Shown here: positions 60,594 to 60,731 of the stretch, piece by piece | Layout of the letters: every line of letters begins with the position of its first letter | How positions within the stretch are numbered: the stretch's first letter is position 1 | Source: Malacoraja senta | Taxonomy: Eukaryota | DNA length: 64,000 nt | Assembly: GCA_038087875.1 (NCBI GenBank) | Contig: CM075995.1 | Location: 2,792,001 to 2,856,000 of the forward strand | Direction: 5' to 3' | Notes under the pieces: model-generated | Database searches by the model: none | What the model was told of the DNA's origin: nothing | The model's input: the letters and a program-made list of their open reading frames with translations, nothing else | Made by a program: the position numbers and the translations under genes

Positions 60594-60647
60594 GGGGTGG
60601 GAGATTGCAACCTTCATGTGGTCCGCCCTGTTTCGACGAATGCAATC
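60594..60647 (+). ncRNA. Minimal HDV-like (CPEB3-type) ribozyme with a vestigial P4
   Basis: P1 GGGGUGG/CCGCCCU (G1-U wobble), P2 GAUUGCA/UGCAAUC (7/7), P3 ACC/GGU, L3 UUCAUGU, J1/4 GU, J4/2 CGAA. Confidence 0.88.
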
Positions 60648-60731
60648 AACCCGGCGTGCACAATCAAATAAGATCAAATAGAACAAGTTGTCCTACAACT
60701 TTAGGCTGTGCACGCCATACGCAAGAAGAAG
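60594..60731 (+). mobile_element. About 137-nt ribozyme-headed SINE-like retroelement inside the TG array
   Basis: Sharp island of unique sequence; apparent TSD gtgtgtgtgagt (60582-60593 and 60731-60742); 3' end catacgc(aag)3. Confidence 0.8.

What the first reader, a model, noticed from the sequence alone, without database searches (positions are those of the whole stretch)
60594..60731. 137-nt SINE-like element whose head is a minimal HDV-like ribozyme, hidden in a TG microsatellite
Seen: a unique island in the (TG)n array reads GGGGUGG ga GAUUGCA ACC UUCAUGU GGU CCGCCCU GU uucga CGAA UGCAAUC. Every HDV-fold element is present in order: 7-bp P1 with a G1-U wobble, perfect 7-bp P2, 3-bp P3 with a 7-nt L3, P1.1 (C22-G37), and J4/2 CGAA with the putative catalytic C at 60637. 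P4 is reduced to 5 nt. G1 is exactly the first base after the apparent TSD, and the element ends in catacgc(aag)3. Established: HDV-like ribozymes define the 5' ends of R2, RTE and L1Tc/Ingi retrotransposons, and P4 is dispensable. Inference: this is a promoterless SINE with no pol III A/B boxes. It would cut itself out of host read-through transcripts and be retrotransposed by a partner LINE. I do not know of such a family described in cartilaginous fish.
Basis: partly seen in the sequence, partly recalled or inferred. Interest (0 to 1): 0.92.

Follow-up and report, generated by a model that had tools for sequence, protein, structure and literature searches.

The report
Ribozyme-headed short retroposon family
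A 138-base mobile element present in thousands of copies starts exactly at the predicted cut site of a very small self-cleaving RNA of the hepatitis-delta/CPEB3 type, so it can probably trim itself out of host transcripts before a partner element copies it back into the genome.

Summary
Window 60594-60731 is one intact copy of a young retroposon family. A 20-base body word occurs 3,358 times in the genome. In 76 distinct randomly sampled copies, 69 are full length. 65 of those 69 have 7-15 bp target-site duplications, and 54 of the 65 end at G1 or one base into it. All copies carry variable (AAG)n tails.

The first 54 nt thread without a mismatch onto the HDV-like double pseudoknot with no P4. 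Rfam models do not detect this head. However, the Rfam CPEB3_ribozyme model finds 39 above-threshold hits elsewhere in the genome (up to 64 bits). These lie at the exact 5' ends of a 3.1-kb endonuclease/reverse-transcriptase LINE that also ends in (AAG)n, and of other repeat families.

The SINE head and the LINE ribozyme share identical L3, J1/4 and J4/2. 8 of 17 stem pairs are changed on both sides and none is broken.

The best reading is a promoterless, ribozyme-processed non-autonomous retroposon, with that LINE as candidate partner. Catalysis, transcription and the partnership are not shown. Ribozyme-headed non-autonomous elements are already known (R2 SIDEs, NARTc). What is new is a P4-less, CPEB3-type version, dispersed in thousands of copies.

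The parts
59969..61567 (.). Imperfect (TG)n microsatellite into which the element inserted
   Evidence: Tandem Repeats Finder; sequence
60583..60593 (+). Left target-site duplication, tgtgtgtgagt
   Evidence: Identical 11-mer at 60732-60742. Weak on its own inside a microsatellite, but it fits the family's 7-15 bp TSDs.
60594..60647 (+). 54-nt head: candidate P4-less HDV-like (CPEB3-type) self-cleaving ribozyme, predicted to cut 5' of G60594
   Evidence: All helices present. G1 is the family's 5' end. Covaries with LINE ribozymes that pass the Rfam CPEB3 model. No Rfam hit to the head itself.
60594..60600 (+). P1 5' strand (GGGGTGG); pairs with 60623-60629 (CCGCCCT); G60594.T60629 wobble at the cut site
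60603..60609 (+). P2 5' strand (GATTGCA); pairs with 60641-60647 (TGCAATC), closing the outer pseudoknot
60610..60622 (+). P3 (ACC/GGT) with the 7-nt loop L3 TTCATGT. C60615 can pair with G60630 (P1.1). The family majority has TTCACGT.
   Evidence: CPEB3 P1.1 is one G-C plus one U-U (PMC4836649, passages).
60630..60636 (+). J1/4 GT plus the 5-nt linker TTCGA that stands where P4 is in other HDV-like ribozymes
   Evidence: The LINE ribozyme has a 24-nt P4 hairpin at this place.
60637..60640 (+). J4/2 CGAA; C60637 is the candidate catalytic cytosine
   Evidence: The same CGAA occurs in the LINE ribozyme and in the Rfam CPEB3 consensus.
60648..60722 (+). Body / 3' domain. A 10-bp long-range stem (GGCGTGCACA / TGTGCACGCC) encloses a 7-bp hairpin (AAGTTGT / ACAACTT). 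Presumed handle for the reverse transcriptase.
   Evidence: Fold of the whole element. The function is inference only.
60723..60731 (+). (AAG)3 tail; its length varies between copies
60732..60742 (+). Right target-site duplication, tgtgtgtgagt

Best explanation
The island is an intact copy of a non-autonomous non-LTR retroposon with no promoter of its own. Strictly it is closer to a 'SIDE' than to a SINE.

Proposed mechanism:
1. A copy is transcribed as part of a longer host transcript (inferred).
2. Its first 54 nt fold into a P4-less HDV-like double pseudoknot with a CPEB3-type core: L3 UUCAYGU, one G-C plus U-U in P1.1, J4/2 CGAA. This cuts the RNA just 5' of G1 and so sets the element's 5' end (inferred from the fold, the covariation and the genomic 5' ends).
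3. The reverse transcriptase/endonuclease of an (AAG)n-tailed LINE primes on the (AAG)n tail at a nicked target and copies the RNA up to G1. This leaves a TSD of about 11-12 bp. The footprints are shown; the identity of the enzyme is inferred.

The candidate partner is a 3.1-kb single-ORF LINE in the same genome. It starts with a full-P4 ribozyme of the same core and ends in (AAG)n.
For: **It is a family.**
- 724 first-look candidates; the 40 that were scored are 98-100% identical.
- 3,358 exact hits of a body 20-mer, against 0 for the reversed control.

**Its ends are sharp.**
- 28 of the 30 best copies start GGGGTGG.
- I fetched 80 loci by the body word alone, so the sample is blind to the head. 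76 of them are distinct. 69 start at positions 1-4 (57 at position 1) and 7 are 5'-truncated.
- 65 of those 69 have TSDs of 7-15 bp. The TSD ends exactly at G1 in 37 and one base into it in 17.
- Tails are (AAG)n of varying length.

**The fold fits.**
- All 17 pairs of P1, P2 and P3, plus G1.U36, C22/G37 and C44, are intact in the window copy. They are intact in 21 of the 30 near-identical copies and in 30 of the 69 random full-length copies.
- The descriptor matches about 1e-6 of random positions.

**Related ribozymes exist in the same genome.**
- The Rfam CPEB3_ribozyme model gives 60 matches at E<=10, and 39 of them are over the 35-bit cut-off, the best at 64.2 bits. Only 59 candidates were scored.
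- cmscan confirms 61.3 bits for L159, and 59.7, 51.4, 48.2 and 40.4 bits for four other families.
- 9 of the 18 fetched hits belong to one LINE. Its upstream flanks all differ, and 7 of these 9 start GGGGATC.

**The LINE.**
- It has a 940-aa open frame with Exo_endo_phos_2 (35 bits) and RVT_1 (112.6 bits).
- Its 3' end is ...ACACGA(AAG)n, with 136 exact hits and tails of 2-5 repeats.
- TSDs were seen in 3 of the 4 elements for which both ends were in view.

**Covariation.**
- SINE head against LINE ribozyme: 9 pairs the same, 0 changed on one side, 8 changed on both sides, 0 broken, out of 17. L3, J1/4 and J4/2 are identical.
- The three subfamily-marking changes in the head (G8A in 23 of 69 copies, C24T, G45T) all fall in unpaired positions.

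**Precedent for P4 loss.**
- Minimal drz lacking P4 are active in vitro (PMC10879173, passages).
- A second P4-less family here (L169-L172) still scores 34-44 bits on the CPEB3 model.
Against: - No Rfam ribozyme model hits the SINE head: E<=10 on 501 nt and on 71 nt, and E<=1 for copy L100.
- The nested-only MFE fold of the head is no better than shuffles (z +0.55), though that method cannot model pseudoknots.
- Copies decay at similar rates in paired, unpaired and body positions. This is expected for dead copies, but it means the copies themselves give no sign of selection.
- Outside the (AAG)n tail, the SINE body shows no significant similarity to the LINE 3' UTR. Six junction-pattern searches found no LINE joined to the SINE's own head or tail sequence. 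The partnership therefore rests on the tail type, the TSD size and the ribozyme class.
- Three copies have the segment between the P2 arms inverted, which would destroy the ribozyme. At least one of them (L063) has normal ends and a TSD. If that variant transposed as such, the ribozyme is not required.
- P1.1 has only one Watson-Crick pair and P4 is absent, so activity could be low.
- No RNA evidence. The runs found are contigs, most are only guessed to be RNA, and one is flagged as probably DNA.
Confidence: 0.78

Rival explanations
1. The 5' end at G1 is a transcription start set by an internal promoter (pol III A/B-like boxes, or a pol II initiator as in L1Tc Pr77). The HDV-like fold is kept for another role, such as binding the LINE protein or acting as an IRES-like structure, or it is an inactive relic after the loss of P4.
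For: - Weak A-box-like (position 5) and B-box-like (position 37) matches with tRNA-like spacing, each with 3 mismatches out of 9 specified positions.
- In L1Tc the same 77 nt are both promoter and ribozyme (PMC3383444, abstract in the search listing).
- In R2 the protein binds a pseudoknot within the ribozyme region (PMC6765202, passages).
- Inverted-core copies have normal ends.
- No Rfam ribozyme model hits the head.
Against: - By my own estimate, box matches with 3 mismatches are expected by chance about 2-3 times per box in 138 nt on both strands.
- No tRNA and no pol III RNA family is found.
- The catalytic core letters (L3, J1/4, J4/2 with its C) are identical to those of LINE ribozymes and to the Rfam CPEB3 consensus, while the stems covary. 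That is the pattern expected for a conserved catalytic fold.
- The full-P4 LINE ribozymes also start exactly at G1.
Confidence: 0.14
2. Chance look-alike: an ordinary retroposon whose 5' end merely happens to fit an HDV-like drawing.
For:
- About 0.1 chance matches per 64-kb window are expected at 1e-6 per position.
Against: - The match begins exactly at the family's 5' terminal base.
- The same genome holds ribozymes that pass the Rfam threshold, with identical loops and junctions and compensated stems.
- A second P4-less family, with a linker identical at 7 of 9 positions by eye, scores up to 43.7 bits.
Confidence: 0.02
3. The ribozyme reading is right, but the partner is not the LINE found here. 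The SINE would be mobilised by another, unsampled or extinct (AAG)n-tailed LINE whose 3' UTR matches the SINE body.
For: - Outside the tail, the body shows no significant similarity to the LINE 3' UTR.
- The SINE and LINE stems differ at 8 of 17 pairs, so the SINE is not a recent internal deletion of this LINE.
- At least five ribozyme-bearing repeat families exist, and I saw the 3' end of only one of them.
Against: - No other sequence in the genome carries the SINE's last 24-28 nt behind a different upstream sequence.
- No other (AAG)n-tailed family was seen in about 340 kb of held sequence.
- An older SINE subfamily ends ...CACACGAAAG(AAG)n, close to the LINE's ...ACACGAAAAG(AAG)n, but this is only 3 copies and the alignment is weakly above shuffles (5 and 9 of 300 shuffles reach it).
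Confidence: 0.3

Closest known systems
R2 SIDEs and R2/R1 hybrid SIDEs of Drosophila (Eickbush & Eickbush 2012, PMC3414825; abstract and passages read)
   Same: Short non-autonomous elements made of an HDV-like ribozyme at the 5' end and a 3' end used by a LINE's machinery. They are not pol III transcribed. The SIDE ribozyme is 25-40% diverged from the LINE's but has the same structure. In the hybrids, the ribozyme and the 3' end come from different LINEs.
   Different: SIDEs sit only in rDNA sites, are co-transcribed with 28S rRNA and are rare. This family is dispersed genome-wide in thousands of copies, has (AAG)n tails and 7-15 bp TSDs, lacks P4 and has a CPEB3-type core. Self-cleavage of SIDEs was shown in vitro; here it is not.
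L1Tc / NARTc of Trypanosoma cruzi (PMC3383444 and PMC3185411: abstracts in the search listing; PMC8256844: passages)
   Same: An autonomous LINE and its short non-autonomous partner share an HDV-like ribozyme as their first nucleotides, which frees them from longer transcripts.
   Different: In L1Tc/NARTc the 77-nt head is the same sequence in both and doubles as a promoter. Here the SINE and LINE heads differ in every stem, and no promoter role is known.
HDV-like ribozymes at the 5' ends of RTE and baggins retrotransposons (Ruminski et al. 2011, not held; cited through review PMC6765202, passages)
   Same: Promoterless LINEs transcribed from host or neighbouring promoters and cut at their 5' end by the ribozyme. 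The review says some non-autonomous SINEs do the same.
   Different: Those were described in insects and other invertebrates, with full P4. I did not establish the clade of the LINE found here; a single-ORF, 3.1-kb, RTE-like layout is my inference.
Mammalian CPEB3 intronic ribozyme (Rfam RF00622)
   Same: The LINE ribozymes in this genome score 48-64 bits on the CPEB3 model and share long runs of letters with its consensus: P2, P3, L3, J1/4, J4/2. The SINE head keeps the same L3 (family majority), J1/4, J4/2 and the weak P1.1 (PMC4836649).
   Different: CPEB3 is a single-copy intronic element described as mammalian (PMC10919898, passages). These are multi-copy retroposon heads. The SINE head itself fails the model and has no P4.
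Minimal (P4-less) HDV-like ribozymes / theta ribozymes of gut phages (PMC10879173, passages)
   Same: P4 is absent, the ribozyme is about 50-60 nt long, and it cuts at G1.
   Different: Those are reported almost only in Caudoviricetes phages, next to tRNAs. This one heads a eukaryotic retroposon.
Hammerhead-bearing SINE-like elements of Schistosoma (review PMC6765202, passages)
   Same: A short interspersed element that carries a self-cleaving ribozyme.
   Different: A different ribozyme class, pol III transcribed, and cleavage resolves multimers.

Membership tests
HDV-like (delta-like) self-cleaving ribozyme | Nested double pseudoknot in the order P1-J1/2-P2-P3-L3-P3'-P1'-J1/4-(P4)-J4/2-P2' | tested here: met
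   All 17 pairs of P1 (7), P2 (7) and P3 (3) are standard in the window copy. My descriptor matches only here in the window. The layout rules are recalled, not taken from a tool.
HDV-like (delta-like) self-cleaving ribozyme | G1.U wobble at the cleavage site and a cytosine in J4/2 | tested here: met
   G60594.T60629; C60637 in CGAA. The same letters occur in the LINE ribozymes and the Rfam CPEB3 consensus.
HDV-like (delta-like) self-cleaving ribozyme | Stems supported by covariation | tested here: met
   Against the LINE ribozyme: 8 of 17 pairs changed on both sides, 0 broken. Against Fam2: 8 of 16. Against Fam5: 9 of 16, with 1 broken. These comparisons are between families. Within the SINE family the copies are too alike to tell.
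HDV-like (delta-like) self-cleaving ribozyme | Site-specific, divalent-ion-dependent self-cleavage 5' of G1 | not testable with these tools
   Only indirect: the genomic 5' ends lie at G1. The sequencing runs were contigs and cannot show RNA ends.
Rfam CPEB3_ribozyme (RF00622) | Score at or above the gathering threshold of 35 bits | tested here: not met
   The SINE head gives no hit at E<=10 or at E<=1 for L100. The LINE and four other repeat families do pass, at 40-64 bits.
Minimal (P4-less) drz | P4 replaced by a short linker, with the rest of the fold kept | tested here: met
   5-nt TTCGA between J1/4 and J4/2, where the LINE ribozyme has a 24-nt hairpin.
SINE in the strict sense | Head derived from tRNA, 7SL or 5S with an internal pol III promoter | tested here: not met
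   ARAGORN finds none. No pol III RNA family at E<=10. The best A-box and B-box matches have 3 mismatches each.
Non-LTR (TPRT) retroposon | Target-site duplications, a 3' simple-repeat tail of variable length, and some 5'-truncated copies | tested here: met
   65 of 69 full-length copies have TSDs; tails are (AAG)n; 7 of 76 are truncated. Truncated copies with TSDs were also seen.
SIDE-type derivative of a resident LINE | 5' ribozyme and 3' end both recognisably derived from autonomous elements of the same genome | tested here: inconclusive
   The ribozyme class and core are shared with the LINE. The 3' likeness is limited to (AAG)n and a few bases in an older subfamily.

The most novel reading that the evidence does not exclude
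The ribozyme that heads this LINE lineage, together with its P4-less SINE derivatives, is a true sequence homologue of the mammalian CPEB3 intronic ribozyme. On this reading the 'mammalian' CPEB3 ribozyme is an exapted 5' processing ribozyme of an old vertebrate retrotransposon lineage that is still active here. It would also mean that minimal P4-less HDV-like ribozymes, so far tied to gut phages, work in animal nuclei at thousands of loci, cutting host transcripts wherever an intact copy lies in sense orientation.
Probability: 0.4. Interest if true: 0.88.

Novelty: new variant of a known kind. Interest (0 to 1): 0.76.

Why it matters
**Ribozyme load in one genome.** If the head cleaves, this genome carries thousands of small self-cleaving ribozymes. 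30 of 69 sampled full-length copies still have every helix and core base. Each could cut any host transcript that runs through it in sense orientation. That is a large and unstudied source of RNA processing events.

**Minimal HDV-like ribozymes outside phages.** P4-less ribozymes would gain a second natural habitat and a clear job.

**Origin of the CPEB3 ribozyme.** The LINE ribozymes found on the way score up to 64 bits on the Rfam model of the 'mammalian' CPEB3 ribozyme. The long-open question of where that ribozyme came from could then be addressed by phylogeny of retrotransposon heads against the CPEB3 intron.

**What the paper searches showed.** In the held library, searches for HDV-like ribozymes with SINE, shark, fish or non-mammalian terms, and for two sequence strings, found no description of such elements in fishes. 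The library lacks most subscription journals and Repbase.

Tried and rejected
**Rfam and folding**
- Rfam scans of the element, on 501 nt and on 71 nt, gave only chance SCARNA matches or nothing.
- Nested MFE folding is no better than shuffles and cannot model the pseudoknot.

**Search for a LINE joined to the SINE's own head or tail**, using patterns that exclude the SINE continuation:
- 21 hits, 14 inspected. All are internal-deletion variants except L055, which has no plus-strand RT frame.
- 14 hits, 7 inspected. These are truncated copies or 4-nt deletion copies.
- 2 hits. One was inspected; L060 was not.
- 7 hits. These are deletion variants, three inverted-core copies and one truncated copy.
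- 6 hits.
- 14 hits, judged from the matched letters only.

**LINEs that turned out not to be the partner**
- L071/L074 looked like a SINE-LINE junction but is an unrelated LINE with an (ATT)n tail nested in a SINE copy.
- The Pfam RVT_1 search is dominated by L1-like elements. The two I fetched (L075, L076) show no (AAG)n tail, and L075 has a poly(A) tail.
- A scan of all held sequence for other (AAG)n-tailed repeats found none. Window 24994 was looked at and dropped.

**SINE body against the LINE 3' UTR:** only the tail aligns.

**Sequencing runs**
- All 24 runs are contigs. Only one is recorded as RNA, and it laid just 2 contigs.
- They show the family in at least three other coded organisms, with cover starting at G1. 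They give no RNA 5' ends and no evidence of expression.

**Other dead ends**
- MAFFT left-aligned the SINE's 3' part, so I counted pairs from descriptor parses in a script rather than with the count of structure pairs.
- The protein atlas did not place the LINE in a clade.
- Earlier findings of this scan returned nothing.
- Whether the host is a cartilaginous fish was not tested.
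Full report
**What is in the window.**

Positions 60594-60731 interrupt a 1.6-kb imperfect (TG)n array, 59969-61567.
- P1: GGGGTGG pairs with CCGCCCT, with a G1.T wobble and a T5.G wobble.
- P2: GATTGCA pairs perfectly with TGCAATC.
- P3: ACC pairs with GGT around the 7-nt loop TTCATGT.
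- GT follows P1.
- A 5-nt linker, TTCGA, stands where P4 would be.
- J4/2 is CGAA, with its C at 60637.
- The element ends CATACGC(AAG)3.

An identical 11-mer, tgtgtgtgagt, lies on both sides at 60583-93 and 60732-42. The island is 138 nt, not 137.

**Is it more than chance?**

Standard tools do not recognise it.
- cmscan of 60400-60900 and of 60585-60655 at E<=10 gives only chance SCARNA matches or nothing.
- A nested MFE fold is no better than shuffles, though that method cannot model pseudoknots.

I wrote a descriptor from recalled HDV-fold rules:
- a 7-bp P1 that opens with G.U;
- a 3-bp P3 around a 7-8-nt L3 with C at position 3;
- G directly after P1;
- a P2 of at least 5 bp preceded by C-N-R-A.

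It matches once in the 128,000 positions of the window, at 60594. In Markov random sequence it matches about 1e-6 of positions: 3, 1 and 5 matches in 4 Mb each. The descriptor was written after I had seen the element. The decisive point is therefore independent of it: where the family's 5' end lies.

**It is a large, young repeat family with a sharp 5' end at G1.**

- A search of the window's own 1.94-Gb genome gave 724 first-look candidates. The 40 that were scored are 98-100% identical over the whole 138 nt.
- 28 of the 30 fetched copies begin GGGGTGG. All end in (AAG)n of variable length and are flanked by duplications.
- A 20-mer from the body occurs 3,358 times, and its reversed control 0 times.

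I then took the first 80 of those places on contig C1. They were chosen by the body alone and are therefore blind to the head.
- 76 are distinct loci.
- 69 start at element positions 1-4 (57 at position 1). 7 are 5'-truncated.
- 65 of the 69 have a TSD of 7-15 bp, median 12. One mismatch was allowed, which can add a base.
- The TSD ends exactly at G1 in 37 copies and one base into it in 17, where the base is an ambiguous G. The other 11 lie within -4 to +2.

So copies do not extend upstream of G1.

The family majority has L3 TTCACGT. The window's TTCATGT marks the youngest subfamily: 30 of the 30 best matches have it, against 4 of 66 in the random sample.

Contigs of runs from at least three other coded organisms hold hundreds to more than a thousand pieces of the family (1,182, 861 and 166 laid). 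Cover begins at G1, and a J4/2 variant, CTAA, makes up about half of the depth in two of them.

**The head is not a pol III gene.**

- ARAGORN finds no tRNA.
- No tRNA, 5S or 7SL family appears at E<=10.
- The best A-box and B-box matches have 3 mismatches each.

In the strict sense this is not a SINE. It is a promoterless short retroposon of the kind Eickbush and Eickbush called a SIDE (PMC3414825).

**Looking for the partner.**

Six pattern searches asked for the SINE's head or tail joined to anything other than the SINE. They returned only deletion variants, truncated copies, three inverted-core copies and one rearranged locus.

The strongest RVT_1 hits are L1-like elements. The two I fetched showed no (AAG)n tail, and L075 ends in poly(A).

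The turn came from searching the genome with the Rfam CPEB3_ribozyme model.
- It gave 60 matches at E<=10, 39 of them above the 35-bit gathering score and the best at 64.2 bits. Only 59 candidates were scored.
- None of the 14 control genomes passes the cut-off.

I fetched 18 of the hits. They fall into at least five repeat families, and cmscan confirms the scores: 61.3, 59.7, 51.4, 48.2 and 34-44 bits.

**The LINE.**

Nine of the 18 belong to one element.
- All nine have different upstream flanks, and 7 of the 9 begin GGGGATC.
- The descriptor parses five of the nine as a 7-bp P1, a 2-nt J1/2, a 7-bp P2, P3 GCG/CGC, L3 TTCACGT, J1/4 GT, a 24-nt P4 hairpin, J4/2 CGAA and then P2'.
- One copy read through (L158 plus L175) has a 940-aa open frame, followed after one stop by 88 more codons.
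- That frame carries Exo_endo_phos_2 and RVT_1.
- About 3.1 kb from G1 the element ends ...ACACGA(AAG)n, followed by a repeat of its 5' flank.
- The 3' terminal word occurs 136 times, with 2-5 AAG repeats and unrelated flanks.
- In 3 of the 4 elements for which both ends were in view, the flanks form TSDs of 8-11 bp.

So the same genome holds an autonomous LINE that starts at the cut site of a full-size ribozyme of this type and ends in the same (AAG)n tail as the SINE.

**Covariation.**

I laid the SINE head and the LINE ribozyme out element by element.
- All element lengths up to J1/4 are equal.
- L3 (family majority), J1/4 and J4/2 are identical.
- Of the 17 stem pairs, 9 are the same, 8 differ on both sides while staying Watson-Crick or G.U, none differs on one side only and none is broken.
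- Against two further families the counts are 8 of 16 changed on both sides with 0 broken, and 9 of 16 with 1 broken.

Within the SINE family the only subfamily-marking changes in the head are G8A (23 of 69), C24T and G45T. All three lie in unpaired positions. Individual copies decay at similar rates everywhere, as dead copies should.

A second SINE-like family of about 165-170 nt (L169-L172) also lacks P4. Its linker, TTCCACCAA, is close to the TTCGACGAA seen here (7 of 9 by eye), and it still scores 34-44 bits on the CPEB3 model. It bridges the SINE head to the full-size ribozymes.

The core features match what is published for CPEB3: a 4-nt J4/2 holding the active cytosine, and a P1.1 of one G-C plus one U-U (PMC4836649, passages).

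**How it most likely works.**

- Shown: the family, its ends, its TSDs and tails; the fit to the fold; covariation with ribozymes recognised by Rfam; and a LINE with the same kind of ends.
- Inferred: that a copy is transcribed within a longer host transcript; that the head cuts 5' of G1; and that the LINE's protein primes on the (AAG)n tail and copies the RNA to its new 5' end.

P4-less HDV-like ribozymes are active in vitro in phage examples (PMC10879173), so loss of P4 does not argue against activity.

I put the ribozyme-processing reading at about 0.78. The main rival is an internal promoter that sets G1, with the fold kept for another role or as a relic. I put that at about 0.14.

Against my reading:
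- There is no biochemical or RNA-end evidence. The runs were contigs, and mostly only guessed to be RNA.
- The head fails the Rfam models.
- The body is not derived from this LINE's 3' UTR.
- Three copies have an inverted inter-P2 segment, and at least one of them (L063) has normal ends and a TSD.

**Compared with what is known.**

HDV-like ribozymes at the 5' ends of R2, RTE, baggins and L1Tc elements are established, as are the non-autonomous NARTc and R2 SIDEs. A review says some SINEs use them. The kind is therefore known.

What differs here:
- the host, reported as a chordate only weakly by the protein atlas;
- the dispersed, thousand-copy scale;
- the P4-less form, which a recent survey found almost only in phages;
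- the CPEB3-type core.

The LINE ribozymes' strong match to a model described as mammalian (PMC10919898) is the most interesting by-product.

Searches of the held paper library found no description of such elements in fishes or of CPEB3-like ribozymes in retrotransposons. Repbase, Dfam and most subscription journals could not be checked.

**Verdict.**

I rate it a new variant of a known kind, with high interest, pending a cleavage assay.

Noticed in passing
L157-L160, L162-L164, L166, L167 (G000 loci; not in the window): A 3.1-kb single-ORF LINE (endonuclease + RT). Its first nucleotides form a full-P4 ribozyme that scores 52-64 bits on the Rfam 'mammalian CPEB3 ribozyme' model. It has an (AAG)n tail and TSDs of about 8-11 bp.
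   Followed up: yes
L161, L165 (Fam2); L168, L173 (Fam4); L174 (Fam5): Three further repeat families whose 5' parts pass the CPEB3 model (48-60 bits) with different stems. Fam2 has J4/2 CTAA. Their bodies and 3' ends were not examined.
   Followed up: partly
L169-L172 (Fam3): A second SINE-like element of about 165-170 nt with a P4-less ribozyme head (34-44 bits), TSDs in L169 and L171, and an end ...GATAAGAAG. The position aligned to G1 of the model is a T that also belongs to the TSD, so its P1 register and cut site are unclear.
   Followed up: partly
L063 (same locus as L059), L064, L066: SINE copies in which the 31-nt segment between the two 7-nt P2 arms is inverted relative to the rest. 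L063 still has normal ends and the TSD ataatacac. This could be inversion at the short inverted repeat or a transposed ribozyme-dead variant. It is unexplained.
   Followed up: partly
L167, upstream of the LINE 5' end: At least four tandem 26-nt units, each a partial copy of the LINE ribozyme (P1 end to P3'), lie directly upstream of a LINE copy.
   Followed up: no
L118/L119, L127/L128, L137/L138, L140/L141 (contig C1): 4 of the 80 sampled SINE loci are exact duplicates including their flanks, 46-150 kb apart. These are recent segmental duplications or assembly duplicates.
   Followed up: no
L071 / L074: A 5'-truncated LINE of another family (RT motif, (ATT)n tail) is nested inside a SINE copy. 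The SINE's own TSD, acagtaacatct, is intact around the composite.
   Followed up: yes
L075 (G000:C9) and the table: An apparently intact L1-like element (ORF1 341 aa, ORF2 1271 aa, poly(A) tail, 16-bp TSD). Many RVT_1 hits have the same 1271-aa open frame, and there are 159,857 first-look RT candidates in the genome.
   Followed up: partly
L031, L034-L037, L039, L040 and others: A shorter SINE subfamily lacks 18 nt between two CAATC direct repeats just after the ribozyme. Several other copies carry small deletions inside the head.
   Followed up: partly
window 59813-59881 and 62323-62500: Tandem repeats of 36 nt (1.9 copies) and 40/79 nt (4.5/2.3 copies) flank the microsatellite. They were not studied.
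   Followed up: no
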